In this document: one piece after another, positions 2,383 to 47,651 of the stretch
Numbering within the stretch: the first letter of the stretch is position 1
How the letters are laid out: the number at the start of each line of letters is the position of its first letter
Origin: an uncultured delta proteobacterium
Lineage (GTDB): Bacteria > Desulfobacterota > Desulfobacteria > Desulfobacterales > SpSt-501
DNA length: 64,000 bases
NCBI GenBank assembly: GCA_963828345.1
Contig: CAWHEZ010000029.1
Location: forward strand, 69,582 to 133,581
Reading direction: 5' to 3'
The notes under the pieces: model-generated
What the model saw: only the letters and a program-made list of their open reading frames with translations
The model's database searches: none
Told to the model about the DNA's origin: nothing
Made by a program: the position numbers and the translations under genes

Positions 2383-2411
2383 ATTATGAGCATATGCTCA
2401 ATACATGTCAA
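2383..2411 (-). promoter_or_regulatory. Sigma70-type promoter TTGACA-N17-CATAAT with an overlapping perfect palindrome TGAGCATATGCTCA (2387-2400)
   Basis: The minus strand reads GGGCTTGACATGTATTGAGCATATGCTCATAAT, about 25 nt upstream of the DUF134 start. Same architecture as the arsR promoter at 5533-5561. Confidence 0.55.
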
Positions 2412-2510
2412 GCCCGAAATTCAGGCCGTGAAACCGGCAGGGATTCGATCGCGCGACGTGCGCGAGACAGGATTTACGGCAGACGGACCTGCGGGGAAGG
2501 CGCCCATCCC

Positions 2511-2832
2511 TTACTTGCGGAACAGGCGTTCGAAAAGGCTCTTTTTCGCGGAACTCTTGGGTGGAAACCGCATGGGGTTCAGTTTCCGATGAGTCGGCTG
2601 AAGAAGCCTTTCCGTGCGGGCCAACAACGGGAAGCCCGAGATGTCTCCGGATAACGGCCTCCACCTTCTCCTCGGAGATGCCTGAACCTTCGACCACGAT
2701 CTCATCCGCCACCATCAGGGCTGGAGCAACCGGCAGCTCCAACTCGAAATAGGCATCCGTCTGGTATTCGGCTTGGGGTTTGGACGTAACCTCGATCTCG
2801 ATGTCGTATTTAGAGCCCAGCCTGGGCATCAT
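2511..2832 (-). CDS. Hypothetical small protein, last gene of the ArsR operon; 3' frame ambiguous
   Basis: Track ORF 2398..2832 starts MMPRLGSKYDIEIEV. Its 3' third runs through the DUF134 promoter. Alternative frames encode KGFFSRLIGN* and ...KKSLFERLFRK* (stop 2511), suggesting indels near 2585-2625. Confidence 0.3.
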
Positions 2833-2881
2833 GGCGTTGAACCCCTTTCAGGGCTTGCCGTTGGGCTCGTTGAGAAAGAAT

Positions 2882-4651
2882 CTAACCTTGAGCATGGCCA
2901 TCTCCCGTTTCGCGTGCCTCTTTTATGAGTTTGTTCATGCGTTCTACGAACTGGTCCGAGGGCAGGTAGTCCACCAGCCGCAGGTCCTGTCGCTCTCTGC
3001 CTGTCTCATCCAAAAATACAACCGTGGGGACGCCCTTGACCGCGTACTCTCTCAACAGTCTCTCTTTGAGAGCATCGCCGGCCTGCGTCACGTCGACCTT
3101 GACCATGACGAAGCGTTCTCGCGCCAACCCGACGATGGCTGGATCATGAAATGTAATCTCGTCCAACTCCCTGCACGGCGCGCACCATGCCGCATAGAAG
3201 TCGATGATGACCGGCTTCCCGCTGCTTCGCGCAGCCTCCAGTGATTCGTCTGAATATGAAACCCAGGTCACTGCCGGTCCACGCATGATCCAGGAGGCAA
3301 GCAGCAGGACCGCGACCGCAAAGGGGAGAGCGCCGGAGGCGGCCTTGAGCCATGGGAACATTCTGAAGCTCGCCTCCGTGCGATCGAGCCACGCGAGGTG
3401 GATGCCCGCTGCAAGCAACGACGCGGCAAGGGCGATGGTCGCGGCAGGCTCCCGGAGAACCGGCTTCAGGAAGTAGACTGCCATCACGACCAGCACCCAG
3501 CCCATGAGCTTTCGGACCCAGATCATCCATCCCCCCGCTCGGGGCAGGCGTTTGAGTTGGCCGGAGAACAGCGCCAATACAAACAGGGGCAGTCCGAGGC
3601 CGATGCTGAGCGTAAAGAACACGATGAAACCGATAAGCGGGCTGCCCATGCTGGCGACCCACGTGAGAAGGCCCAGCACAAAGGGACCGATGCAGGGTGC
3701 GGCTACCACACCCAGGGTCAATCCCATGAAGAGGCTGCCGCCATAGCCGCGGTACGACTTCGCCGACGCCTGCGTGAGACCGCTCGGAAGGCGTAGCTCC
3801 CACAGGCCGAAGAGACTGGTGGCGAACAGAACCAGCACCGTCGCGACCCCCATCAGTACCGCCGGATGCTGAAGCACCCCTCCCATGAGGCTGCCGGTCA
3901 GGGCTGCGGCGGTACCCAGAATGGAGTTTGTGAGTGCAAGCCCGAGCAGGTAACAAAGCCCATGCGCGACCAGGCGGCCTCTGCGCCTGTCCGATGCCGC
4001 CCGACCGCCGAAGTATGAGACCGTGATGGGGATCATCGGGTAAACGCACGGCGTGAGGTTGAGGGCCATTCCTCCCGCGAAGATCCCCAGGAGCGTCCAG
4101 ATCATGGCCCAGCCGTATAAAGGGCCGGGGGGGCGCTGCTCCCGACTTGAAGTTGCCAAGCCGGCGGGCTGGCTTCCGATCGGCAATCCCACCTTCTGCC
4201 ACTCCGGAAAGCCAAGGGGATCACGGTACACATTCTTGTATCCAAGCTGAACGGCCACCCGGGCCGCCGAGTCGCTGCGGACTCATGTCAGGCCTGCTCA
4301 GTAAAAAACGACGAGTCGCTCCTTGTCCGGTCCGAGCAGGTGTTGCAGATCATCGGCCTTACGCCAGCGCGACCACCAGGTCGGCTCGATCGGGAAGTTG
4401 ATGGCACCATGGATGTGGCCGGTCCGGTACTCCCAGTCCTGCCGCGTGTCGATCAGCATGGGGGTGTGTTGTGAAACCATCGACGCAAGCTCTTGAGTCG
4501 TGACGAGCCGGTAACCACCCCGTTGAGCTTCCGCCTTAACATCCTCCCATGTTGCTTCCCTGGGGGTGACGGCCTGATGGGTCCACCACAAGGAAGCGAT
4601 CGCAACCGACACGGCAACTGCCGTCATGATAAACGTTCGGCTGAGGTTCAT
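2882..4651 (-). CDS. Membrane-anchored rhodanese - CcdA/DsbD transmembrane core - thioredoxin fusion. Two in-frame TGA (4298-4300, 4283-4285) read as candidate selenocysteines.
   Basis: Track ORFs 4298..4651 (rhodanese N-part ending VVFY) and 2882..4258 (starts inside the rhodanese C-part GYKNVYRDPLGFPEWQKVGLPI, then LNLTPCVYPMIP and WCAPC) are in the same frame. They are separated only by TGA-AGLT-TGA-VRSDSAAR. Confidence 0.6.
4250..4285 (-). promoter_or_regulatory. Tandem SECIS-like hairpins downstream of the two UGA codons
   Basis: Hairpin 1 is UGAGUC/CGCAGC/GACUCG (4285-4268). Hairpin 2 is GGCGGCC/CGGGU/GGCCGUU (4268-4250). The apical loops lie about 18-23 nt after the respective UGA. 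Confidence 0.4.
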
Positions 4652-5100
4652 GGCAGCCGGCCCTCTCGTTTCAGCTTGGAGACCAGGAAGGTCGCCCCCC
4701 TGGCGGAAAGCCCCAGCTCGGCTACCAGGTCCTCGGCCATCAGGTTGGAGCGTGACGCCGCAAGGGCCGCAACTTCATGCTCAAGCTCTTCAAGCCAGTC
4801 TTCGAACAGGACCAGGATCTCGGGGTTGGTGATCGCGGTCAGTTGCTTGGACTGCGCCACCTTGTCCACCAGGCTCTGGCACATCTGCGTTGGGTCGACA
4901 CCTTCGCCCATGCATTCGGCCAGTCAGAGGTGAACCATGCTCGAGACTTTGTCGGCTTCAGACTCTCCGACGATCTGCAGGAGGAACGCACTCCTGGCCT
5001 CCTCGGGAACGACAGGGAAGATCGACTTCAACGCCTCGCCGATCGCCCCGAGAGCGCTCTCGGGGTCCATTCGGGCGAGGATCTTTGAAACCTGGCTCAT
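4648..5100 (-). CDS. Hypothetical protein with C-terminal winged-helix-like segment. In-frame TGA (4924-4926) read as candidate selenocysteine in an HL-U-LAEC motif.
   Basis: Track ORFs 4924..5163 and 4648..4911 share one frame across a single TGA. Best start is ATG 5100, with GGAGG 8 nt upstream. The stop overlaps the next start (ATGA at 4648-4651). Confidence 0.45.
4891..4910 (-). promoter_or_regulatory. SECIS-like hairpin
   Basis: UGGGCGA-AGGUG-UCG(A)CCCA: a 7-bp stem with a one-nucleotide bulge and a GGU-containing apical loop. It begins 13 nt after UGA 4926-4924. Confidence 0.4.
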
Positions 5101-5119
5101 AACCGCAGCCTCCATTGGA

Positions 5120-5491
5120 TCAGAGAGACGTTCTTCCTGCGACCAGACTTGCCGCAACGGCACTCAACGTGCCGACAACTTCTATGACTCGCGGATCGGC
5201 CAGGCCATAGTAAACGAACGGGCCCTCGCGCTGAATGTCCACCAACAGGCACCTCCGGAGTTCCCTCAAGTGGTGGGACACCAACGGCTGTGAGAGGCCT
5301 ACCTCCTCTACGATTCTGGTAACTGACTTTCTGGTGCCCACCATGGACATGAGAATGCGGAGTCTGTTTTCGTCTGCAATTCCCTTCGCAAGGATTGCGA
5401 CTGACCGACACCCATCGCGATCGAGCCGGCTGCCTTGGGTCTGGGTCGAGTCGGTCGCAGGACTCTTTCTCTGAGCGGTTACCCTTTTCAT
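5120..5491 (-). CDS. ArsR/SmtB family transcriptional regulator
   Basis: LAKGIADENRLRILMSMV...KSVTRIVEEVGLSQPLVSHHLRELRR is a wHTH of ArsR type. ATG 5491 is preceded by GGTGG. The track ORF starts at TTG 5512. Confidence 0.85.
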   Translation of the reverse strand: MKRVTAQRKSPATDSTQTQGSRLDRDGCRSVAILAKGIADENRLRILMSMVGTRKSVTRIVEEVGLSQPLVSHHLRELRRCLLVDIQREGPFVYYGLADPRVIEVVGTLSAVAASLVAGRTSL

Positions 5492-5532
5492 TCGCCACCG
5501 TTTTGCCGGCAAGGTTTACCCGATGCGTTAGC

Positions 5533-6766: not shown

Positions 6767-7846
6767 CTAATCGGAATGCAGGACCACGGTGAATGCGTTG
6801 AACGCCACCCGGACCGGGTCGCCCGGCCGCAGGCCGAGCGTCTTGCGGCTCTGCTCGGTGACGACCGCGCAGATCTCGGTTCCGTCGGCGATGCGGGCCA
6901 CGATCTCCGCGGTGACCTTCCCGCGCACGACGCGCTCGACCGTTGCGGCGAGCACGTTGTCCGCCGAAGACCCCGGATCGTCGGCGCCGCGGTAGACGGT
7001 CACCCAGGGCGCCTTCACCTCGGCCGCGACGAGGCCGCCCTGCTTCAGCCCCAGTCGGTCCAGGCTGCCGTTGGTGATGACGGCGCTGATGCGGCAGCCG
7101 CCCGGCGTCGCGATCTCCACCCGGGCCTGCACGTCGCCCTTGACGAGGGTTTCGATCTTCCCGAAGAAGGCGTTGCGCGCGCTGGTCTTGCGTCGGTTCT
7201 CCCGATCGACGAAGAAGGCCTCGACCCGCCGCATGTCCTCCTCGGAAAAGCTCACGTAGGCGGCGGCCAGGCTGGGGGTCGAATGCCCGAGGATCCGCTG
7301 GACGACCGGCAGCGGGACGTTGCCCTGCAGCAGCTCGACGGCCCGGGAGCGGCGGATGACCTCGGGCGCGCCCATTTCACGCGGCAGGCCGCAGGCCGCG
7401 GCGCACGCGTAGAATTTGCGGCGCACGTGGGCCGGGTCCAGCCTGAGAGCCCGCGCTCCCGTGCGGCTCAGGGACAGGAGTCCCAGAACCTCTTGAACCT
7501 CGGTCGCCACCCCATCCGGCAGCTGGACGTTGCGGCCGGTACGATCGCTCGCGCCGGCCCCTTTGCGAAACCGGACCGTGTGGCTGTCCCGGTCGAAGTC
7601 GGTCTGGAAATCGAGATCGAGCACCTCGTTGAGGCGTGCGCCCGTGTAGCGGATCAGGAGGAAAATCAGCAGAACCCTGCGCCGGGAGGACACGAGATCC
7701 GCCCGGCGGGGGGACCCCGCCCATGCGCGCAGCGCCTGCTCGAGCCGGTCGAGCTGGATGGGGTCCAGGCAGCGGCCCGGACCCTGCCCGGACAGGATGC
7801 GGGCATGATCCGGTGCCGGGGGGCGTCGGCTTCGGGTCGTCATCAT
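6767..7846 (-). CDS. Tyrosine-recombinase-fold (XerD-like) domain fused to two TOBE/Mop oxyanion-binding domains; putative tungstate/molybdate-responsive regulator (TunR-like)
   Basis: The N-terminal two-thirds resembles an integrase catalytic domain (LIRYTGARLNEV, LGHS...AAYV). The C-terminal third has two NAFxGKI...G...V TOBE repeats. It is divergent from a molybdate-type transporter. Confidence 0.65.
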   Translation of the reverse strand: MMTTRSRRPPAPDHARILSGQGPGRCLDPIQLDRLEQALRAWAGSPRRADLVSSRRRVLLIFLLIRYTGARLNEVLDLDFQTDFDRDSHTVRFRKGAGASDRTGRNVQLPDGVATEVQEVLGLLSLSRTGARALRLDPAHVRRKFYACAAACGLPREMGAPEVIRRSRAVELLQGNVPLPVVQRILGHSTPSLAAAYVSFSEEDMRRVEAFFVDRENRRKTSARNAFFGKIETLVKGDVQARVEIATPGGCRISAVITNGSLDRLGLKQGGLVAAEVKAPWVTVYRGADDPGSSADNVLAATVERVVRGKVTAEIVARIADGTEICAVVTEQSRKTLGLRPGDPVRVAFNAFTVVLHSD

Positions 7847-7914
7847 GGGCGGCCGTGGGTCCTTTCCGGTCGGGTGTGCGGCGCGGCGATGCGAGGATCT
7901 TTGCAGGAAAAGTC

Positions 7915-7943
7915 TTGACGCGTCGCGGGCAGCGCGCTATAAC
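7915..7943 (+). promoter_or_regulatory. Sigma70-type promoter TTGACG-N17-TATAAC for the MOT1-type transporter
   Basis: Hexamers at 7915-7920 and 7938-7943. Confidence 0.45.
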
Positions 7944-7946
7944 TGG

Positions 7947-14886: not shown

Positions 14887-15714
14887 TTACTTCGCATTCG
14901 GGGTGAACAATGGCTTCCCCATCACCTTGAAATCCCGGATGACCTTCTGCCCTTCGGCTCCGGCGATCCACGCGCTGAAGGCCTGCGCCAGGTCGAGCTT
15001 CGCCTTGGGGCACTTGGCCGGGTTCACGGCGATCACCGCGTACTGGTTCAACAGGGTCTGGTCGCCCTCGACCAGGATCTTGAGCGGCGGGTTCCCGCCC
15101 AGGGTGTTCTCGTACTTGATGTAGGTGCCGCGGTCGGCGAGCGTGTATCCGTTCTTCTCGGCCGCGATCGTGATGGTGGCCATCATGCCCTGGCCGGCCT
15201 GGGCGTACCAGGACTCCTTTTCCGGCACCGCGAGCCCGGCCGCCTTCCAGAGGTCCAGCTCCATCATGTGAGTGCCGGACTTGTCCCCGCGGCTGACGAA
15301 ACCGGCCTTTTTCGCGGCAACGGCCTCCAGAGCCTGCTTCACGCTCCGGCCCTTGACGCCGGCCGGGTCGGCCGCCGGGCCGACGATGACGAAGTCGTTG
15401 TACATGATCTCCCGGCGGTCGAGGCCGAAGCCGTCGGCCACGAACTTCTTCTCGGCGTCGGGGGCGTGAACCATGAGCACGTCCACGTCGCAGTTCTCGC
15501 CCAGCTTCAGCGCCTTGCCGGTGCCGGTGGCCGTCCAGCGCAGCTCGATGCCGCTCGCCTTCTTGAACTCCGGCGCCAGCACGTTGAGCAGCCCCGTGTC
15601 CTCCGTGCTGGTCGTGGTCGCCATCAGCAGCACTTTGTCCTGGGCGACAGCAACGCCCGCCAACAGCAGCAGGGTTGCCAACAGGCTCATCAACTGGATG
15701 AATCTGACGTTCAT
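14887..15714 (-). CDS. tupA: Tungstate ABC transporter substrate-binding protein TupA
   Basis: Signal peptide, then the TTTSTEDTGLL motif and SRGDKSGTH. Confidence 0.85.
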   Translation of the reverse strand: MNVRFIQLMSLLATLLLLAGVAVAQDKVLLMATTTSTEDTGLLNVLAPEFKKASGIELRWTATGTGKALKLGENCDVDVLMVHAPDAEKKFVADGFGLDRREIMYNDFVIVGPAADPAGVKGRSVKQALEAVAAKKAGFVSRGDKSGTHMMELDLWKAAGLAVPEKESWYAQAGQGMMATITIAAEKNGYTLADRGTYIKYENTLGGNPPLKILVEGDQTLLNQYAVIAVNPAKCPKAKLDLAQAFSAWIAGAEGQKVIRDFKVMGKPLFTPNAK

Positions 15715-16658
15715 ACGGCCTCCTTCACGATCGGTTTGTCAGCGACTGGTTTGGGGGGGAACACCATCTTGCCGGTCATGCTCAGATCGTAGCCCTCGAG
15801 CCCGTCGGTCACCATGCGGTGAAACCGCGCGTCGTGCAGCAATCCGAGGAAGCGCTGCACCGCCTCGTCGAAGAAGCGGTCCTTGGCGACCATCAGGTCG
15901 AAGCGCTCCCAGCGCAGCGGGAGGAACCCCAGGTTGAGCATGGCCGCAACCGGCCGGATCCCCGGGCCGACGTCGGCCCGGCCGGCCAGGACCTCCAGCC
16001 CGACGTCGAGATGCCGCTGCACTTCGTTGACGTAGCCGTCGAGCCGCTCGCCCTTGATCCCGGCCTTGGTCAGCTCGCGGTCCAGCAGCAGCCGGGTCCC
16101 GGTCCCCAGCTGGCGGTTGACGATGCGCAGGCCGGGCCGTCCGAGGTCCGCGACCTTCGTGATCTTCTTGGGGTTCCCCTTGGGGACGATCAATCCCTGC
16201 TCGCGCCGGCAGAAGTTGACCATGGCCGGCATGTCCTCGAGCTCGGAGGAGGCGTACGCGAAGTTGTACTCGCTCTCGTCCTCCTGCAGCAGGTGGCTGC
16301 CGGCGATCTGGCAGAGGCCGCGGCGCAGCGCGCGCAACCCGCCCATGCTCCCCAGGTTGCCGAAGACCGCGAGGTGCTGCGAGTCCAGGGTGTTGAAGAT
16401 GGATATCAAACGGTCGAGGAGCAGGTCGTTGCTGCCGGCCACGACGAGCAGCCCCTTGTAAGCGGCCGCATCGGAGGTCTGCTTCGGAAAGTTGAGCGTG
16501 TGGGTTTCGACCCACTGCTCCACGAGGTGCTGCGGGAAGAGCCACTTGCCGGTGATCTTGCTGGCGGGCAGGCCTTTCTCCGACACCAGCGTGTAGACCA
16601 TTTTCTCGTTCACGTTCAGGAACTTGGAGACTTCGCGCGTGGACATCAGCTTCGACAT
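15711..16658 (-). CDS. HTH (excisionase/MerR-type) DNA-binding domain fused to a periplasmic-binding-protein-like domain; putative oxyanion-responsive regulator of the tup operon
   Basis: N-terminal MSTREVSKFLNVNEKMVYTLVSEKGLPASKITGKWLF, with a C-terminal PBP-like domain. 4-nt overlap with the tupA start. Confidence 0.7.
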   Translation of the reverse strand: MSKLMSTREVSKFLNVNEKMVYTLVSEKGLPASKITGKWLFPQHLVEQWVETHTLNFPKQTSDAAAYKGLLVVAGSNDLLLDRLISIFNTLDSQHLAVFGNLGSMGGLRALRRGLCQIAGSHLLQEDESEYNFAYASSELEDMPAMVNFCRREQGLIVPKGNPKKITKVADLGRPGLRIVNRQLGTGTRLLLDRELTKAGIKGERLDGYVNEVQRHLDVGLEVLAGRADVGPGIRPVAAMLNLGFLPLRWERFDLMVAKDRFFDEAVQRFLGLLHDARFHRMVTDGLEGYDLSMTGKMVFPPKPVADKPIVKEAV

Positions 16659-16687
16659 GGCACCCTCGCCTGTTCAGAAAGGCCACT

Positions 16688-20058: not shown

Positions 20059-21381
20059 ATGTTCGAATCCCTGAGCGAAAAACTCGATTCCGCCTTCAAG
20101 AAGCTGCGTGGGCACGGCCGGCTGACCGAGGGCAACATCGATGAGGGCCTGAAGGAAGTCCGCATGGCCCTGCTCGAGGCCGATGTCCACTATCGGGTGG
20201 TCAAGGGCTTCATCGAGGAGGTGCGCTCGCGCTCGCTCGGCCAGGAGGTGATGGGCAGTCTCACTCCCGGCCAGCAGGTTGTCAAGATCGTTTACGAGAA
20301 GCTGACCGAGTTGATGGGGTCGCGCCACGAAGGGTTGAACCTCGGCGGCGCGCCGCCGGCGGCCATCATGCTCGTGGGGCTGCAGGGCTCGGGCAAGACG
20401 ACCACCGCGGGCAAGCTTGCGATCCAGCTGCGCAAATCGGGGCGCCGGCCCTTCCTGGTCCCGGCCGACGTCTATCGTCCGGCCGCCATCGACCAGCTGA
20501 AAACGATCGCCGAGCAGGTGGACGTCCCGGTCTTCGCGTCCACCACGGACCAGGACCCGGTGCAGATCTGCCTGGAGGCCAAGACCGGCGCGTTCCAGAA
20601 GGGGTGCGACACCCTGATCATCGATACGGCCGGGCGGCTCCACATCGACGAGGAGCTCATGGCCGAGCTCTCCCGGATCAAGGAGACCATCCGACCGGCC
20701 GACATCCTGCTGGTGGCCGACAGCATGACCGGCCAGGACGCCGTCAACATCGCCAAGTCCTTCAACGACCGGCTGGACATCAGCGGCGTGGTTCTGACCA
20801 AGATGGACGGCGATGCCCGCGGCGGCGCCGCGCTCTCCATCCGGTCGATCACGGGCAAGCCGATCAAGTTCGTGGGCGTGGGGGAAAAGCTCAGCGCGCT
20901 CGAGCCGTTCCACCCCGATCGCATGGCCTCGACCATCCTCGGCATGGGGGATGTCCTCAGCCTGATCGAAAAGGCGCAGGAGACGGTCGACCAGAAAAAG
21001 GCGCTCGAGCTCCAGAAGAAGCTGCGCAAGAGCCAGTTCACGCTCGAGGACTTCCGGGACCAGTTGGTCCAGGTGCGCAAGATGGGCTCGCTGTCCGACA
21101 TTCTCAAGATGATCCCGGGCATGGGCAAGGTCAAGGAGATCAAGAACCTCGAGATCGACGACGGCGAGTTCGTCCGGATCGAGGCGATCATCAACTCCAT
21201 GACGCCCCAGGAACGGCGGCAGCACGGCATTATCAACGGCAGCCGGCGGCGCCGTATCGCGACCGGCAGCGGCACGCGCGTGCAGGACGTCAACGGACTG
21301 CTGAAAAATTACACTCAGATGCTGAAGATGCTCAAAAAATTCAACCAAGGCGGCATCCGTCGCGGGATGCTGCCGTTCTGA
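20059..21381 (+). CDS. ffh: Signal recognition particle protein Ffh
   Basis: N/G domain with GLQGSGKTTT, DTAGR and TKMDGDARGG, followed by a Met-rich M domain. Confidence 0.97.
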   Translation: MFESLSEKLDSAFKKLRGHGRLTEGNIDEGLKEVRMALLEADVHYRVVKGFIEEVRSRSLGQEVMGSLTPGQQVVKIVYEKLTELMGSRHEGLNLGGAPPAAIMLVGLQGSGKTTTAGKLAIQLRKSGRRPFLVPADVYRPAAIDQLKTIAEQVDVPVFASTTDQDPVQICLEAKTGAFQKGCDTLIIDTAGRLHIDEELMAELSRIKETIRPADILLVADSMTGQDAVNIAKSFNDRLDISGVVLTKMDGDARGGAALSIRSITGKPIKFVGVGEKLSALEPFHPDRMASTILGMGDVLSLIEKAQETVDQKKALELQKKLRKSQFTLEDFRDQLVQVRKMGSLSDILKMIPGMGKVKEIKNLEIDDGEFVRIEAIINSMTPQERRQHGIINGSRRRRIATGSGTRVQDVNGLLKNYTQMLKMLKKFNQGGIRRGMLPF

Positions 21382-22006: not shown

Positions 22007-22525
22007 GTGATGGACGAGGGGCACATCCTGATCGGCCGCGTCGTCGGCGTGCACGGCATCCGCGGGGGGCTCAAGCTGGTTTCCTACGCCGAGTCGCTCG
22101 CGGTCTTCGCTCCTGGATGCCGCCTTCTGGCGGTTTCCCCCGGGGGGGTGGAGAGCACCGTGGAGGTCCTCGAGGCCCGGCCCCAGGGTCGGGCAGCCGT
22201 CCTGTTCGTTCAGGGGGTGACCGACCGGGGCCGCGCCGAGACGCTGGTCGGCTACGACCTGTTCATCGAGCGGCGGGAGCTGCCCGCTCTGCCCGACGGG
22301 ACCTACTACTGGGCGGACCTGACAGGCCTGGAGGTTTACGGCGCCGACGGGGAGCACCTCGGGGCCATCCGGTCGATTTTCGCGACCGGCAGCAACGACG
22401 TGTACGTGGTCGCGCTCGGCGACCGGGAAATCCTCCTGCCGGCCACCCGTGCGGTGGTTCGCAAGGTGGACCTTGGAGCGCGACGCATGGACGTGACGGT
22501 GCCCGAAGGCCTCGAGCCGGAGTGA
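22007..22525 (+). CDS. rimM: 16S rRNA processing protein RimM
   Basis: IGRVVGVHGIRGGLKL...GTYYWADLTGLEV...NDVYVV. Confidence 0.93.
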   Translation: MMDEGHILIGRVVGVHGIRGGLKLVSYAESLAVFAPGCRLLAVSPGGVESTVEVLEARPQGRAAVLFVQGVTDRGRAETLVGYDLFIERRELPALPDGTYYWADLTGLEVYGADGEHLGAIRSIFATGSNDVYVVALGDREILLPATRAVVRKVDLGARRMDVTVPEGLEPE

Positions 22526-37565: not shown

Positions 37566-38456
37566 ATGACCCAGGACCCTTCGCCCGAGCCTGCGCCGAT
37601 CAACATCGCCTCCCGGGCGTGGCGGTTCACCCTGCACGTGCTCCGGGATTTCCACCGCCGCCGGGGGCTGCTGCTGGCCGGCGCGGTCGCGTACTACACG
37701 CTGCTGTCCATCGTGCCGCTCCTGGCGCTCGTCCTCGTCGGCCTCTCGCACTTCGTGAACCAGGAGCAGCTCATCCACACCATCACGCTCAACCTCGAGC
37801 TCCTGATCCCGGGGTACGCCGAGAGCCTGGCCGGCCAGGTGAGGATCTTCCTCGTCAACCGACACCTGGTCGGGGCGGTCGGGTTTCTCATCATGCTCTT
37901 TTTCAGCTCGATGGCCTTCTCGGTTCTCGAGAGCACCATGGCGGTGATCTTCTCGCACCACAAGCAGTCCATGCGCCGGCCGTTTCTCATCTCGGCCATC
38001 ATCCCATATGTCTACATCCTGCTCATCGGCCTCGGGGTCTTTCTCGTCACGATCATCACCGGTGCACTCGACGCGTTGGAAAAACAGCAGGTGCTGCTGC
38101 TCGGTTACACGCTGAGTCTGAGGGGCACCTCCCGGTTCCTGCTCTACCTGCTGAGCATGGGGGGGATGATCCTGATGCTGACCTCGTTCTACCTCGTCAT
38201 GCCGGTCGGACGCATTTCGTTCCGCCACGCCTTGAGCGGGGCGGTCACCGCGGCCGTCCTCTGGGAGATCATCCGCCGCGTCCTCGTGTGGTATTATTCA
38301 AAGCTCTCGCTGGTCAACATCATCTACGGGTCGCTCGCCACGACGGTGGTCGCCCTGCTCAGCATCGAGGTGGCCGTCCTCATCCTCCTGCTGGGCGCCC
38401 AGGTCATTTCGGAGTTCGACCGCCGCCGCGCCGAGGCGGAGAAGAACGGGGCTTGA
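37566..38456 (+). CDS. YihY/BrkB (virulence factor BrkB) family membrane protein
   Basis: LAGAVAYYTLLSIVPLLAL, six TM segments, IYGSLATTVVALL. Confidence 0.85.
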   Translation: MTQDPSPEPAPINIASRAWRFTLHVLRDFHRRRGLLLAGAVAYYTLLSIVPLLALVLVGLSHFVNQEQLIHTITLNLELLIPGYAESLAGQVRIFLVNRHLVGAVGFLIMLFFSSMAFSVLESTMAVIFSHHKQSMRRPFLISAIIPYVYILLIGLGVFLVTIITGALDALEKQQVLLLGYTLSLRGTSRFLLYLLSMGGMILMLTSFYLVMPVGRISFRHALSGAVTAAVLWEIIRRVLVWYYSKLSLVNIIYGSLATTVVALLSIEVAVLILLLGAQVISEFDRRRAEAEKNGA

Positions 38457-40668: not shown

Positions 40669-41916
40669 TCACCTCCGCGTGTCGCACGTGAACTGGGCAA
40701 TGGGTTTCTTGTCGAAGCGCGCGAACTCCATGACCGACTCGATTTCGACCTGGGGCTTGCCCTGGGCCATGCCGACCGAAATCACGAAGTCGAAGCACTG
40801 GTCCGAAGGGACCTCCTTGCGGAAGGTCTCCTCCAGCTCGCGCATGCCGTGCTCCCGGAAGTCGGCCGTGAACTTGTCCAGGATGCGCTGGGCCTCGTCC
40901 AGGTCCGAAAACGGCAGGATCGTGGCGAACTCGTTGATGGACTGGCGCGTGGAGAAGCCGCCGACGGCCCCGAAGTGCTTGCGGATGTAGTTGCCGAGCG
41001 AGCGCAGCGTCTGCTGCGCGGCGTCGTGGCCGAGGCCGGAGCTGACCTCCTCCATGTTGTCGAAACTGAACATCAGCACGGCGTAGGACTCGTCCGCCCC
41101 GCGGCGGGCCAGTTCCGTCTGGTAGCGGATCTTGAAGTGCCGACTCGAGACCAGCCCGGTGATGTCTTCCTGCAGATTCTCGAGGCTCTGCACGATCTCG
41201 GTGCGGAAGGGGTGGTCGAGGTTGTCCAGCTCCTCGGGCGGGCCCTCGTAGACGATCTTCTTCTGGTAGAGGGCCAGGATGCGGTTGGAGATGAAGAAGA
41301 CGTCCGGGATCTCGTGGCTGATGAGGACCGCGGTGAACCCGAAGCGCTTCTTGTACTCGGCGATCATGCCCAGGATCGCGTTCTTGCGGATCGGGTCCTG
41401 GCCGGTCGTCGGCTCGTCGAAGAGCACGATCTGCGGGTCGGTCACGAGCGCCCGCGCCAGTGCGGCGCGCTTCTGCATGCCCCCCGAAATCTGGGACGGG
41501 TATTTGTGCGCGACCTCGGTCAGCTCGGTCTGCTGGATGCGCGTCATGACCTTCTGGTCGATCTCCCGGCGGCTCAGGCGCGTGGTGTGCTTCAACGGCA
41601 GGGCGACGTTCTCGTAGACCGTCATCGCGTCGAACAGGGCGTTGTTCTGGAACATGTAGCTGATGCGGCCGATGTAGGCGTCCCAGTCCTGGCGGTTCAT
41701 GCGCTGAATGGGGACCCCCTGGTAGAGGATCTCGCCCGCGTCGGGCGTGAGCAGCCCGATGATGTGCTTGAGGGTGACGCTCTTGCCCGTGCCGCTCAGG
41801 CCGATGATGGTCGTGACCTCACCCTCGTAGATCTTGAAGTTGACCCCTTCCAGGATGGTCCTCTCCCCGAACCGTTTCGTGACGTTGCGAAACTCGATCA
41901 GCGGTTGCCGTTCCAT
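40669..41916 (-). CDS. MlaF-type ABC ATPase fused to a C-terminal degenerate GGDEF-like domain
   Basis: Residues 1-250 have Walker A GLSGTGKS, ISGGMQKRAALARAL and FDEPTTGQD. Residues 260-415 read ITGLVSSRHF...SFDNMEEVSSGLGHDAA...TRQSINEFATILP...A..I, a GGDEF fold with SINEF in place of GGDEF. Confidence 0.75.
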   Translation of the reverse strand: MERQPLIEFRNVTKRFGERTILEGVNFKIYEGEVTTIIGLSGTGKSVTLKHIIGLLTPDAGEILYQGVPIQRMNRQDWDAYIGRISYMFQNNALFDAMTVYENVALPLKHTTRLSRREIDQKVMTRIQQTELTEVAHKYPSQISGGMQKRAALARALVTDPQIVLFDEPTTGQDPIRKNAILGMIAEYKKRFGFTAVLISHEIPDVFFISNRILALYQKKIVYEGPPEELDNLDHPFRTEIVQSLENLQEDITGLVSSRHFKIRYQTELARRGADESYAVLMFSFDNMEEVSSGLGHDAAQQTLRSLGNYIRKHFGAVGGFSTRQSINEFATILPFSDLDEAQRILDKFTADFREHGMRELEETFRKEVPSDQCFDFVISVGMAQGKPQVEIESVMEFARFDKKPIAQFTCDTRR

Positions 41917-46217: not shown

Positions 46218-47651
46218 ATGCCGTTCCCGCTCAACAAGACCAAGATCGTCGCCACCATCGGGCCGGCCTCCGACTCGCCGGAGGTTCTGCGTCGTTTGAT
46301 GGCCGCCGGCATGAACATCGTCCGGTTGAATTTTTCCCACGGCGACTTCTCGGGGCACGCCGACACCATTGCCCGGGTGCGGGAGGCGGCCGCCGCAACC
46401 GGGCGCCGGGTCGCGATCATGGCCGACCTGCCCGGCCCCAAGATGCGAATCGGGCGGTTCGAAGCCGAGCCGGTCCGCCTCACCCCCGGCGCGTTGTTCA
46501 CGCTGACGACCGACGGGACCGCGGTCGGGACCGCCGAGCGGGTTTCCGTGAGCTTCCCGGAATTGCCCGCCTCGGTCCACCCCGGCGACCGGCTGTTCCT
46601 GAACGACGGCTACATCGAGGTCGACGTCGTGCGCGTGGAGGGGGTCGAGGTCGTCTGCCGGGTGCTCGTCGGCGGCGAGCTGCGCTCGCGCAAGGGGCTG
46701 AACCTGCCCGGGATCGACCTGGGGATCAGCGCCTTCACCCCGCACGACCGCGACTGCCTGGAGTTCGCCCTGCGGCACGGGGTGGACGCCGTCAGCCAGT
46801 CCTTCGTCGACCGCGCCGCGGACATCGCAGCCGTGCGGGCGGCCGCGGCCGAGCTCGGCTACACGCCCTTCGTCATCGCCAAGATCGAACGCGCGGGGGC
46901 CCTGGAGCGCATCCACGAAATCCTCGCGGCCGCGGACGGGATCATGGTGGCGCGCGGCGACCTGGGGGTGGAGATCCCGATCGAGGAAATGGCCGTTGCC
47001 CAGAAGCGGCTCATGCAGCTGGCCAACCGGGCGTGCAAGCCCGTCATCACGGCCACCCAGATGCTCGAGTCCATGATCGCCAACCGGCTGCCGACGCGCG
47101 CCGAGGCGACCGATGTCGCCAACGCGATCCTGGACGGGACGGACTGCGTGATGCTGTCGGGCGAGTCCGCCGTCGGGCAGTTCCCGGTGGAGGCGGTCGC
47201 GATGCTGGCGAAGATCGCGGCCGCAACCGAAATCCATCGCACGCGCTTCGGCCCGGCGCGGGCCGAGGATGCCTGCGCCGGCGAAACCGCCGGGATCACC
47301 GCCGAAGAGCTCGTCGCCGCCAGCGTGGACACGACCATCCGTCGCATCACGCCGGCGACCGTCATCACCCCCACGCACAGCGGCGCCACCGCGCGCGGCA
47401 TCGCCCGCTTCCGCCTGCCGGTCTGGGTCACGGCCGTCAGCTCTCAGGACACGACCTGCCAGAACCTGCAGTTCTCGTACGGGGTCTTCCCGGTCTGCGA
47501 ACGGGACCACCCGGACCACTGGCGGGCGTGGGGGCGCAACTGGCGCGACACGCAGGGTCTGAACGGCCGCTACATCGTGCTGACCGAAGGCCCGTCGCGC
47601 AAGCACCCCGAGCGCAACCACCGCATGGAGATCATGGATCTGGATGCCTGA
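46218..47651 (+). CDS. pyk: Pyruvate kinase
   Basis: TKIVATIGPAS...MNIVRLNFSHG...MVARGDLGVEIP. Confidence 0.96.
   Translation: MPFPLNKTKIVATIGPASDSPEVLRRLMAAGMNIVRLNFSHGDFSGHADTIARVREAAAATGRRVAIMADLPGPKMRIGRFEAEPVRLTPGALFTLTTDGTAVGTAERVSVSFPELPASVHPGDRLFLNDGYIEVDVVRVEGVEVVCRVLVGGELRSRKGLNLPGIDLGISAFTPHDRDCLEFALRHGVDAVSQSFVDRAADIAAVRAAAAELGYTPFVIAKIERAGALERIHEILAAADGIMVARGDLGVEIPIEEMAVAQKRLMQLANRACKPVITATQMLESMIANRLPTRAEATDVANAILDGTDCVMLSGESAVGQFPVEAVAMLAKIAAATEIHRTRFGPARAEDACAGETAGITAEELVAASVDTTIRRITPATVITPTHSGATARGIARFRLPVWVTAVSSQDTTCQNLQFSYGVFPVCERDHPDHWRAWGRNWRDTQGLNGRYIVLTEGPSRKHPERNHRMEIMDLDA

What the first reader, a model, noticed from the sequence alone, without database searches (positions are those of the whole stretch)
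4648..5100. Second in-frame TGA joins two small ORFs into one 150-aa protein with an HL-U-LAEC motif and a bulged GGU-loop hairpin
- **One frame.** Track ORFs 4924..5163 and 4648..4911 (minus strand) are one continuous frame broken only by TGA 4926-4924: ...EADKVSSMVHL-TGA-LAECMGEGVDPTQMCQSLVDKV...
- **Motif.** The TGA lies 4 residues before a Cys (U-x3-C) and 13 before another, which resembles a redox or metal-binding arrangement.
- **Hairpin.** Thirteen nt after the UGA, a 7-bp hairpin with a one-nt bulge and apical loop AGGUG (4910-4891) mimics the shape of enterobacterial fdhF-type SECIS elements.
- **Coupling.** The gene is translationally coupled (ATGA at 4648-4651) to the UGA-containing rhodanese-DsbD gene. 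It follows arsR directly, with a strong SD (GGAGG) 8 nt before ATG 5100.
- **Family.** The C-terminal 60 aa (MAEDLVAELGLSARGATFLVSKLKREGRL) looks like a small winged helix. I do not recognise the family.
Basis: partly seen in the sequence, partly recalled or inferred. Interest (0 to 1): 0.75.

Follow-up and report, generated by a model that had tools for sequence, protein, structure and literature searches.

The report
Known selenoprotein gene tsoA, rediscovered

Summary
On the minus strand, 5100..4648 is one frame broken only by TGA 4926-4924. A bulged hairpin with loop AGGUG lies at 4910-4891.

With Cys in place of the TGA, the joined protein matches NCBIfam NF045695, "LULAXC motif selenoprotein TsoA" (214.9 bits, cut-off 170). 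Its neighbours are TsoR (an ArsR-type regulator), TsoB (rhodanese/DsbD fusion, two TGAs) and TsoC (one TGA). This is the complete Tso operon of Haft & Tolstoy 2025.

In 166 related loci the codon is TGA 164 times and never Cys. The four codons between the TGA and the next ATG change only synonymously, so they are translated.

The hairpin meets all four bacterial SECIS consensus criteria. Its codons show almost no synonymous variation. Base pair 20:33 switches G:C to A:U in 44 loci with no mixed cases.

Two details need correcting. The second Cys is 15 residues after Sec, not 13. The C-terminus is a three-helix HTH core with no wing.

Function is unknown. New here: distant homologues without Sec are methionine-rich, also directly follow ArsR genes, and one is followed by an arsenite methyltransferase.

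Verdict: real, correctly read, already known.

The parts
4648..5100 (-). tsoA coding sequence: 150 codons plus stop, including one Sec codon.
   Evidence: - Single frame.
- NF045695 seleno_TsoA, 214.9 bits against a cut-off of 170; residues 5-147 align to model positions 2-144 of 144.
- Colinear homologues in 80 genome loci and 80 metagenome loci.
4924..4926 (-). UGA read as selenocysteine (residue 59, the U of LULAEC).
   Evidence: - TGA in 164 of 166 related loci, AGA in 1, TAA in 1, Cys in 0.
- The flanking residues HL and LAEC are conserved, with only synonymous codon changes.
4891..4910 (-). Core bacterial SECIS hairpin: UGGGCGA / loop AGGUG / UCG(A)CCCA, with A4895 bulged.
   Evidence: - MFE fold.
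- Codons +6 to +10 show almost no synonymous variation in 78 sequences.
- Pair 20:33 is G:C in 122 loci and A:U in 44, never mixed.
- 40 double-change cells against 9.6 in shuffles (0 of 500 reach it); 97.5% of cells paired.
- Meets the bSECIS consensus.
4876..4923 (-). Possible extended lower stem of the SECIS (CUGGCCG...UG.UGCCAG).
   Evidence: Part of the 51-nt MFE fold. Mostly paired in 69 sequences, but with only 4 double-change cells, so support is weak.
4912..4914 (-). Cys63 codon, the C of the U-x3-C motif. Cys in every Sec-bearing locus examined.
   Evidence: TGC 69 and TGT 9 in 78 sequences. Retained in the divergent clade U-I-x-x-C.
4879..4881 (-). Cys74 codon, 15 residues after Sec, in the (D/N)P..MC motif.
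   Evidence: - Invariant in canonical TsoA.
- Cys in at least 90% of the wider superfamily.
- Replaced by Ser or Gly in the P0136-like clade.
4663..4785 (-). C-terminal helix-turn-helix core (residues about 106-146) without a wing.
   Evidence: - AF2 model of homologue P0001: helices 93-117, 122-129 and 133-145, pLDDT about 90.
- Local Foldseek matches of 40-45 residues to Lrp/AsnC, MntR and Z-alpha wHTH domains, rmsd 1.1-1.7 A, none with a significant E-value.
- HTH_24 hits 7 and FeoC hits 5 of 29 superfamily members.
5109..5113 (-). Shine-Dalgarno GGAGG, 8 nt upstream of ATG 5100.
   Evidence: Read directly from the sequence.
5120..5491 (-). tsoR, ArsR/SmtB-type regulator. ATG at 5491; an alternative TTG start lies at 5512.
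   Evidence: NF045707 TsoR, 136 bits against a cut-off of 115. Directly upstream of tsoA in 79 of 80 genome loci.
2882..4651 (-). tsoB, rhodanese/DsbD/thioredoxin fusion with two Sec codons (TGA 4300-4298 and 4285-4283). Its start overlaps the tsoA stop (ATGA).
   Evidence: NF045694 seleno_TsoB, 967.3 bits against a cut-off of 805. Sequence read.
2398..2901 (-). tsoC, NEPxGxxU-motif selenoprotein (TGA 2850-2848). In this window its 3' end is frameshifted.
   Evidence: NF045708 seleno_TsoC, 145.1 bits against a cut-off of 45. Motif found. A 1-nt deletion relative to L082.

Best explanation
**What it is.** Window 5100..4648 (minus strand) is tsoA, the first structural gene of a tsoR-tsoA-tsoB-tsoC "three selenoprotein operon" in an uncultured sulfate-reducing member of the Thermodesulfobacteriota.

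**How the TGA is read.** UGA 4926-4924 is decoded as selenocysteine, not as a stop. The hairpin 13 nt downstream (4910-4891, loop AGGUG) acts as a bacterial SECIS. In the established mechanism, SelB carrying Sec-tRNA(Sec) binds the loop and delivers Sec to the ribosome paused at the UGA.

**The product.** It is a 150-residue, all-helical cytoplasmic protein.
- Sec59 and Cys63 lie one helical turn apart (L-U-L-A-E-C).
- A further conserved Cys74 follows.
- The C-terminus is a short helix-turn-helix core.

**Shown here.**
- Single frame and family membership.
- Conservation of the TGA.
- Translation of the codons after the TGA.
- Structure, conservation and covariation of the hairpin.
- Fixed pairing of tsoA with tsoR.

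**Inferred function (about 0.35 on its own).** TsoA would be the ligand-handling partner of the ArsR-type regulator TsoR. Its Se/S site would bind, or be oxidised by, a soft metalloid or chalcogen species such as As(III), a selenium species or a persulfide. TsoA would then signal to TsoR or hand the ligand on to the variable downstream enzymes: TsoB/TsoC, a DsrE-like protein, or ArsM-like methyltransferases.
For: **Family membership.** NF045695 TsoA scores 214.9 bits against a cut-off of 170, over the full model length. The neighbours TsoB (967 against 805), TsoC (145 against 45) and TsoR (136 against 115) also pass. The family and operon are listed in review PMC13188914, citing Haft & Tolstoy 2025.

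**TGA conserved.** 164 of 166 loci carry TGA. The loci were retrieved with peptide patterns that do not cover the site.

**Read-through.** Codons +1 to +4 (LAEC) lie between the TGA and the next ATG. In 78 sequences they vary only synonymously.

**SECIS.**
- The hairpin is the MFE fold.
- All four consensus constraints are met.
- Codons +6 to +10 are identical in 387 of 390 cases, while flanking codons have 0.5-2 bits of synonymous entropy.
- Pair 20:33 is G:C in 122 loci and A:U in 44, never mixed; the 3' change is synonymous.
- A 25%-identical clade has the stem GGAUUC/GAAUCC with GGU at the same nt 25-27.
- Covariation score is 0.260 against 0.137 in shuffles (0 of 500 reach it).

**Evidence for the functional inference.**
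- tsoR-tsoA is adjacent in 79 of 80 loci, while tsoB and tsoC are each present in about 60.
- Loci without tsoB carry a DsrE-like Sec protein plus an ArsM-like Sec methyltransferase, or TsoC plus an SQR-like protein plus TsoX.
- Six distant Met-rich homologues without Sec were looked up. All six directly follow an ArsR gene, and one is followed by a bona fide arsenite methyltransferase.
- Five of those six ArsR partners carry a Cys-containing C-terminal tail (MFCCP in three) that TsoR lacks.
Against: - No experimental evidence of Sec insertion exists for this protein, here or in the papers that could be read.
- The classical criterion of a Cys-containing homologue aligned to the UGA is not met: no Cys in 166 loci or in 29 junction-spanning superfamily members.
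- No selA, selB, selD or tRNA-Sec gene was seen in this 64-kb window, so Sec machinery in this genome is assumed from taxonomy, not shown.
- No Rfam family matches the hairpin.
- The structural model is poor exactly around the Sec site (pLDDT about 50), so the geometry of Sec59, Cys63 and Cys74 is not established.
- The functional inference rests on gene neighbourhood only, and only six Met-rich homologue contexts were examined.
- The primary paper could not be read. Its authors may have proposed a different function.
Confidence: 0.88

Rival explanations
1. The TGA is a true stop. There are two independent small genes: a 58-residue N-terminal peptide, and an 87-residue protein starting at ATG 4911 (MGEG...).
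For: Automatic gene callers annotate it this way everywhere. Dozens of 58-60-residue proteins end at HL, and hundreds of 86-91-residue proteins start at MGEG. The window's own 87-residue fragment P0009 is in public databases as a hypothetical protein.
Against: - The LAEC codons between the TGA and the ATG are invariant in protein but vary synonymously, which is not expected for an untranslated spacer.
- The two halves are always in the same frame, with exactly four codons between them.
- No Shine-Dalgarno sequence precedes ATG 4911.
- The curated model spans the junction.
- The covarying hairpin sits at SECIS distance from the TGA.
Confidence: 0.03
2. The UGA is recoded, but not to Sec. It might be read as Trp, or by near-cognate read-through, with the hairpin acting only as a read-through stimulator.
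For: JGI gene calls translate the codon as W. No Cys homologue ties the position to Cys/Sec chemistry. Sec machinery is not visible in the window.
Against: - The W calls are code-4 artefacts on short contigs. Where the DNA was fetched (P0136, locus L092), it reads TGA.
- Most genes in the window end in TGA, so TGA is a normal stop in this organism.
- The loop carries the G-G/U signature at the spacing of the bacterial SECIS consensus.
- The neighbouring genes tsoB, tsoC and tsoX are in families that NCBIfam curates as selenoproteins or (seleno)proteins.
- The host phylum is among those richest in selenoproteins.
Confidence: 0.03
3. Functional rival: TsoA is a dedicated cytoplasmic redox carrier. 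A Sec59-Cys63 selenenylsulfide couple would feed electrons to the membrane DsbD domain of TsoB, much as thioredoxin feeds DsbD. It would not be a sensor or chaperone working with TsoR.
For: - tsoA is translationally coupled to tsoB in this window (ATGA).
- TsoB has a DsbD_TM core that needs a cytoplasmic reductant (general knowledge of DsbD).
- One Met-rich homologue context also has DsbD_TM, a redoxin and TusA nearby.
Against: - tsoA occurs without tsoB in about 20 of 80 loci but almost never without tsoR.
- The Met-rich homologues have no redox-active pair at the site.
- The predicted fold is all-helical with an HTH core, not a thioredoxin fold.
- U-x3-C is not a known redox-relay motif (own knowledge).
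Confidence: 0.2
4. The TGA is a sequencing error or an inactivating mutation in this genome, making the gene a pseudogene.
For: The same window does carry a 1-nt indel at the 3' end of tsoC, so local errors or decay are possible.
Against: The identical TGA is present in 164 of 166 independent genomes and metagenome contigs.
Confidence: 0.01

Closest known systems
TsoA, the LULAXC-motif selenoprotein (NCBIfam NF045695; Haft & Tolstoy 2025, mSystems 10:e0141724)
   Same: - Full-length match above the curated cut-off.
- Identical L-U-L-A-x-C motif.
- Same operon partners: TsoR, TsoB and TsoC.
- Same phylum.

This is a member of the family.
   Different: Nothing of substance. In this lineage the tsoA stop overlaps the tsoB start (ATGA), whereas most relatives have a 30-50 nt spacer.
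E. coli fdhF SECIS element
   Same: - A stem-loop directly downstream of the UGA within the coding sequence.
- A short apical loop carrying GGU.
- A single bulged base in the upper stem.
- Presumably the same SelB-dependent mechanism (established knowledge).
   Different: - GGU lies at nt 25-27 from the U of UGA, against nt 22-24 in fdhF.
- The loop is AGGUG, not GGUC.
- The bulge is an A on the 3' strand, not a U on the 5' strand.
- There is no sequence similarity in the stems.
The arsR-arsD gene pair (ArsD As(III) metallochaperone / secondary regulator)
   Same: A small cytoplasmic protein with three soft ligands, encoded directly after an ArsR-family repressor gene and linked to arsenic-handling genes. 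This positional and possibly functional analogy is an inference and own knowledge of ars operons.
   Different: - ArsD has a thioredoxin-like fold and three Cys (own knowledge); TsoA is predicted to be all-helical with an HTH core and uses Sec.
- No sequence similarity was found.
- TsoA is not a member of the ArsD family.
FeoC / HTH_24 small winged-helix proteins (Pfam PF09012, PF13412)
   Same: The C-terminal three-helix core. Superfamily members hit FeoC (5 of 29, best E 1.8e-6) and HTH_24 (7 of 29, best E 6.2e-6). Local structural matches were found to Lrp/AsnC-type HTH domains.
   Different: - TsoA itself is below Pfam thresholds (HTH_24 20.6 bits against 21.9 for P0001).
- The chain ends about 5 residues after the third helix, so there is no wing.
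- The N-terminal two-thirds has no counterpart in these families.
Multi-selenoprotein operons (SAO system, grdA-grdB, frhA-frhD-hdrA)
   Same: Several Sec-encoding genes act together in one operon.
   Different: The proteins are unrelated. The Tso components are a small helical protein, a rhodanese/DsbD fusion and a small thioredoxin-like protein.

Membership tests
TsoA (NF045695) | Whole-protein score above the curated cut-off of the equivalog model. | tested here: met
   214.9 bits against 170; residues 5-147 align to model positions 2-144 of 144.
TsoA (NF045695) | L-U-L-A-x-C motif with the U encoded by an in-frame UGA. | tested here: met
   HL-TGA-LAEC at 4929-4912. The motif is as listed in the review table.
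TsoA (NF045695) | Location in a Tso operon with the other Tso selenoproteins. | tested here: met
   TsoR, TsoB (two UGA) and TsoC (one UGA) flank it on the same strand, and all pass their cut-offs.
Selenoprotein (general) | Sec is actually inserted at the UGA (protein-level evidence). | not testable with these tools
   Needs mass spectrometry, 75Se labelling or ribosome profiling.
Selenoprotein (general) | Cys-containing homologues align Cys to the UGA (a Cys/Sec pair). | tested here: not met
   No Cys in 166 loci. None of 29 junction-spanning superfamily proteins has Cys in that column. This criterion is supporting rather than defining.
Selenoprotein (general) | The genome encodes selA, selB, selC and selD. 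| not testable with these tools
   None of these and no tRNA-Sec were found in the window ORFs scanned.
Bacterial SECIS consensus (bSECISearch model, as given in PMC13188914) | Apical loop of 3-9 nt and an upper stem of 4-16 bp. | tested here: met
   5-nt loop AGGUG; 7 bp with one bulge.
Bacterial SECIS consensus (bSECISearch model, as given in PMC13188914) | G in one of the first two loop positions, usually followed by G or U. | tested here: met
   Loop A-G-G-U-G. G25 and G26 are invariant in 87 sequences.
Bacterial SECIS consensus (bSECISearch model, as given in PMC13188914) | 16-37 nt between the UGA and the apical loop. | tested here: met
   20 nt lie between the A of UGA and the first loop base.
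Bacterial SECIS consensus (bSECISearch model, as given in PMC13188914) | MFE of -7.5 kcal/mol or lower. | tested here: met
   -8.0 kcal/mol for the 24-nt core and -20.3 kcal/mol for 51 nt.
fdhF-type SECIS (E. coli) | GGUC loop with G23/U24 and a bulged U17 on the 5' strand, at fixed spacing from the UGA. | tested here: not met
   GGU lies at nt 25-27, the bulge is A32 on the 3' strand, and the loop is AGGUG. It works like an fdhF SECIS but is not the same element.
Winged helix-turn-helix (Pfam HTH_24 / FeoC) | Domain score above Pfam's gathering threshold. | tested here: not met
   The window TsoA has no Pfam hit at E <= 0.1. Homologue P0001 scores 20.6 bits for HTH_24 against 21.9.
Winged helix-turn-helix (Pfam HTH_24 / FeoC) | Three-helix core followed by a beta-hairpin wing. 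| tested here: inconclusive
   The core is present (helices 93-117, 122-129 and 133-145; local rmsd 1.1-1.7 A to wHTH domains, E > 0.3). The chain ends at residue 150, which leaves no wing. The Met-rich homologues are longer at this end.
ArsD metallochaperone | Thioredoxin-like fold with a Cys12/Cys13/Cys18 As(III) site. | tested here: not met
   The model is all-helical. There is no family hit. The analogy is one of gene position only.

The most novel reading that the evidence does not exclude
TsoA and its methionine-rich relatives without Sec may form an undescribed superfamily of small HTH proteins that are obligate partners of ArsR/SmtB repressors. They would act as the trans-acting ligand-sensing or ligand-delivering subunit.

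In the Tso branch, the ArsR partner (TsoR) lacks the Cys-containing C-terminal tail seen in five of the six ArsR partners of the Sec-free relatives. Sensing would therefore have moved to a Sec-x3-Cys site on TsoA. That would make TsoA the first selenocysteine-dependent transcriptional co-regulator or metalloid chaperone. The evidence does not exclude this. It rests on neighbourhood data and on six Sec-free contexts.
Probability: 0.2. Interest if true: 0.65.

Novelty: already known. Interest (0 to 1): 0.3.

Why it matters
For genome annotation, this is a clean example of a selenoprotein gene that standard gene callers split into two "hypothetical proteins", or mistranslate with Trp. The first-stage reader recovered it from raw sequence alone.

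Biologically, TsoA is unusual among selenoproteins. No Cys version was found in 166 loci, and it uses a U-x3-C spacing on a helix rather than the common UxxC or CxxU spacing. Its function is untested.

The comparative data add three things:
- A SECIS element with clear compensatory changes that could be used for reporter assays.
- The observation that tsoR-tsoA is the invariant core of the system.
- A link between the wider Sec-free superfamily, ArsR regulators and an arsenite methyltransferase.

Together these make a metalloid or chalcogen sensing-or-trafficking role directly testable.

Tried and rejected
- **Rfam.** There were no hits at gathering thresholds over the whole window. A permissive scan of 2700-5200 gave only chance hits, and no SECIS family.
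- **Primary paper.** Haft & Tolstoy 2025 is not in the library. The only paper found that mentions Tso was the review.
- **Solved structures.** A profile search against PDB sequences found nothing significant. Foldseek against PDB gave only local 40-45-residue HTH matches with E > 0.3.
- **Structure prediction.** Homologue P0001, with W at the site, was modelled instead.
- **Other same-frame TGA junctions.** Those at 21381, 22525, 38456, 40669 and 47651 were checked as possible further Sec sites. They are only adjacent genes in the same frame: ffh/rpsP, rimM/trmD, a membrane protein/STAS protein, an ABC ATPase/MlaD-like protein, and pyruvate kinase/ferredoxin.
- **sel genes.** None were found among 20 large ORFs of the window, and there is no tRNA.
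- **Covariation.** The first attempt, on the 69 closest sequences, failed because the upper stem is invariant there. More distant loci were needed.
- **Metagenome scan.** The first scan, with P0136 alone, found nothing.
- **Lower stem.** The extended lower stem has only weak support, so I do not claim it.
Full report
**1. The observation**

On the minus strand, window 5100..4648 translates as one frame: MSQVSKILARMDPES...DKVSSMVHL*LAECMGEGVDPTQMCQSLVDKV...KREGRLP*. The only internal stop is TGA at 4926-4924.

The next Cys lies 15 residues after it, not 13.
- The hairpin at 4910-4891 is real: UGGGCGA, loop AGGUG, UCG, bulged A4895, CCCA.
- It is the minimum-free-energy fold of the 24-nt core (-8.0 kcal/mol).
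- It is also the fold of the 51 nt starting at the UGA (-20.3 kcal/mol, z = -2.87).
- The GGAGG 8 nt before ATG 5100 can be read directly.
- So can the ATGA overlap with the next gene at 4651-4648, and the ArsR-type gene ending at 5120.

**2. What it is**

With Cys substituted for the TGA, the joined protein has no Pfam hit. It does match NCBIfam NF045695, "LULAXC motif selenoprotein TsoA". This is an equivalog model; the score is 214.9 bits against a curated cut-off of 170, over the whole model.

The rest of the operon is also present.

| Gene | Window coordinates (minus strand) | NCBIfam model | Bits / cut-off | In-frame TGA |
|---|---|---|---|---|
| tsoR (ArsR-type) | 5491..5120 | NF045707 | 136 / 115 | none |
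| tsoA | 5100..4648 | NF045695 | 214.9 / 170 | 4926-4924 |
| tsoB (rhodanese/DsbD fusion) | 4651..2882 | NF045694 | 967 / 805 | 4300-4298 and 4285-4283 (VVFY-U-AGLT-U-VRS) |
| tsoC (NEPxGxxU motif) | 2901..2398 | NF045708 | 145 / 45 | 2850-2848 |

A 2026 review lists these families with exactly these motifs. It attributes them to Haft & Tolstoy 2025, who named the system Tso, "three selenoprotein operon". I could not read the primary paper.

**3. Is the TGA read through?**

Two collection scans used peptide patterns that do not cover the Sec site. They returned 80 genome loci, all Thermodesulfobacteriota, and 80 metagenome loci.

- Over the 166 loci with the motif, the codon is TGA 164 times, AGA once and TAA once. 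It is never a Cys codon.
- The four codons between the TGA and the next ATG (Leu-Ala-Glu-Cys) are invariant as amino acids in 78 sequences.
- Those same four codons vary freely at synonymous positions: CTG/CTT/CTC/CTA, GCC/GCG/GCA/GCT, GAA/GAG, TGC/TGT. This is the signature of a translated segment.
- Public protein sets show the gene split into a fragment of about 58 residues ending in HL and a fragment of 86-91 residues starting at MGEG. That is an artefact of calling TGA a stop.
- The apparently full-length JGI proteins carry W at the site. The one such locus whose DNA I fetched (P0136, L092) reads TGA, so the W comes from a code-4 translation.

**4. Is the hairpin a SECIS?**

It meets all four constraints of the bacterial SECIS consensus quoted in the review.

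| Constraint | Required | Found here |
|---|---|---|
| Apical loop | 3-9 nt | 5 nt (AGGUG) |
| Upper stem | 4-16 bp | 7 bp with one bulge |
| G in the first two loop positions, then G or U | yes | A-G-G-U-G |
| Spacing from the UGA to the loop | 16-37 nt | 20 nt |
| MFE | -7.5 kcal/mol or lower | -8.0 kcal/mol |

Conservation and covariation both support it.

- Codons +6 to +10 (GGC GAA GGU GUC GAC) are identical in 387 of 390 cases. Flanking codons carry 0.5-2 bits of synonymous entropy.
- In the closest 69 sequences the stem never varies, so covariation could not be judged there.
- With more distant loci, position 20 pairs with position 33 as G:C in 122 loci and as A:U in 44 loci, with no mixed case.
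- The 5' change turns Gly into Asp. The 3' change (GAC to GAU) is synonymous, so it is explained only by RNA pairing.
- A clade only about 25% identical in protein (P0136, L092, L101-L105) has a different stem, GGAUUC/GAAUCC or GGAUUC/GAGUCC. Five of its six sequences keep GGU at nt 25-27; L101 has GGG there.
- On 86 distinct sequences, 97.5% of cells pair. Forty cells carry changes on both sides against 9.6 in shuffles (0 of 500 shuffles reach it). The covariation score is 0.260 against 0.137 (0 of 500). Slid registers pair in only 13-44% of cells.
- I checked the E. coli fdhF element in 5,419 genomes and folded it. There the GGU lies at nt 22-24 and the bulge is on the other strand. This hairpin works like an fdhF SECIS but is not a copy of it.
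- Rfam has no matching family.

**5. The protein**

- An AlphaFold2 model of the 65%-identical homologue P0001 is entirely helical, with mean pLDDT 72.
- The C-terminal 50 residues have pLDDT about 90. The Sec-bearing region has only about 50.
- Sec and Cys at i and i+4 lie within one predicted helix (residues 50-65 of the model). From helix geometry they would sit on the same face; the low confidence here means the model does not establish this.
- The last three helices match the HTH core of Lrp/AsnC, MntR and Z-alpha domains locally: 40-45 residues, rmsd 1.1-1.7 A, none with a significant E-value.
- Superfamily members hit Pfam HTH_24 and FeoC.
- TsoA ends about 5 residues after the third helix, so it has no wing. 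There is no signal peptide or membrane segment in the sequence.

**6. Context and likely role**

- tsoR-tsoA is adjacent in 79 of 80 genome loci. tsoB and tsoC are each present in about 60.
- Where tsoB is missing, tsoA is followed by one of two arrangements. The first is a DsrE-like Sec protein (YCUGSC) plus an ArsM-like Sec methyltransferase. The second is TsoC, an SQR-like oxidoreductase and TsoX.
- A profile search of 1.84 billion representatives found 367 relatives. The junction-spanning ones are methionine-rich proteins that keep the (D/N)P..MC and LFE(E/D)W motifs and the HTH. They have neither Sec nor Cys at the TsoA Sec position.
- I looked up six such proteins. All six directly follow an ArsR/HTH_5 gene.
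- One of the six is followed by a bona fide arsenite methyltransferase (NF008823, 361 bits against a cut-off of 263).
- Another sits beside TusA, DsbD_TM and a redoxin.
- Five of those six ArsR partners carry a Cys-containing C-terminal tail, with MFCCP in three. TsoR lacks it.
- From this I infer, without having shown it, that TsoA is the ligand-handling partner of TsoR. Its Se/S site would bind or react with a soft metalloid or chalcogen species. TsoA would then signal to the regulator or feed the downstream enzymes.
- The main functional rival is a dedicated reductant for the DsbD domain of TsoB.

**7. Limits**

- There is no protein-level evidence of Sec insertion.
- No Cys/Sec pair was found.
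- No sel genes or tRNA-Sec are visible in this window.
- The structural model is poor at the active site.
- The primary literature could not be read.
- The functional inference rests on few contexts.

**8. Verdict**

The family is already known and curated. Interest is modest. The unexplored part is the function of TsoA and of its ArsR-linked superfamily.

Noticed in passing
window 4283-4300 and 4250-4268 (minus strand): tsoB has two in-frame TGAs only 15 nt apart (VVFY-U-AGLT-U-VRS). They are followed by a single G+C-rich hairpin, GGCGGCC / CGGGU / GGCCGUU, so one SECIS may serve both codons. The fold is not better than shuffled sequence (z about 0), and I did not compare it across loci.
   Followed up: partly
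window about 2621, within tsoC (2398-2901, minus strand): Relative to the near-identical metagenome contig L082, the window lacks one A (GTTGTTG-GCCC against GTTGTTGAGCCC). The tsoC frame therefore shifts after ...HLGLPVV, and the ORF runs on for 78 extra residues instead of ending ...EPARKGFFSRLIGN-TGA. This is either an assembly error or a real 3' frameshift.
   Followed up: yes
window 2398-5163 compared with its flanks: Third-position G+C of tsoA and tsoB is 0.73-0.79, against 0.85-0.95 for most flanking genes. The tsoC segment did not pass the coding filter and gave no figure. The low values hint that the operon was acquired horizontally.
   Followed up: no
L064:2620-2622 and L162:87-89: These are the two exceptions at the Sec codon. 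L064 has AGA (Arg) in a second tso locus of one MAG, whose other copy (L057) has TGA. L162 has TAA. Both keep the hairpin. They may be decaying copies or sequencing errors.
   Followed up: partly
L092, L101-L105: A divergent Sec-bearing clade has the motif VE[HRY]-U-I-x-x-C. The second conserved Cys is replaced by Ser or Gly. U-x3-C is therefore the invariant pair, and the third Cys is dispensable.
   Followed up: partly
P0157, P0160, P0214, P0226, P0184, P0176 (loci L086-L100): These are methionine-rich homologues of TsoA without Sec (MMxxMM repeats, NPMEMC, LFEEW, HTH). Each directly follows an ArsR-family gene. One is followed by a bona fide arsenite methyltransferase, and one sits beside TusA, DsbD_TM and a redoxin. 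Five of the six ArsR partners carry a Cys-containing C-terminal tail (MFCCP in three) that TsoR lacks.
   Followed up: partly
L013, L021, L025, L027, L033 (downstream of tsoA): In loci without tsoB, tsoA is followed by a DsrE-like protein with YC-U-GSC and an ArsM-like methyltransferase with SWAG-U. Both have in-frame TGAs. The methyltransferase best matches NCBIfam's arsenite methyltransferase selenoprotein models, below their full-length cut-offs.
   Followed up: partly
proteins P0001-P0008, P0014, P0019, P0031, P0033, P0034, P0045, P0136: JGI gene calls on short contigs give full-length TsoA with Trp at the Sec site. The likely cause is translation of TGA with genetic code 4 or 25. This was checked against DNA only for P0136. 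Such calls can mask selenoproteins as ordinary proteins.
   Followed up: yes
window 6767-10277 and 14887-16673: A cluster of tungstate and molybdate genes lies next to the operon:
- two TupA-like binding proteins;
- a tyrosine-recombinase/Mop (TOBE) fusion;
- a protein matching NCBIfam's molybdopterin biosynthesis model.

DUF134, a Nitro_FeMo-Co-like protein and a TrmO-like gene follow tsoC directly, an arrangement shared with L026.
   Followed up: no
window 21379-21381, 22523-22525, 38454-38456, 40669-40671, 47649-47651: Other places where two ORFs share a frame across a TGA are simply adjacent genes: ffh/rpsP, rimM/trmD, a membrane protein/STAS protein, an ABC ATPase/MlaD-like protein, and pyruvate kinase/ferredoxin. 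They are not Sec sites.
   Followed up: yes
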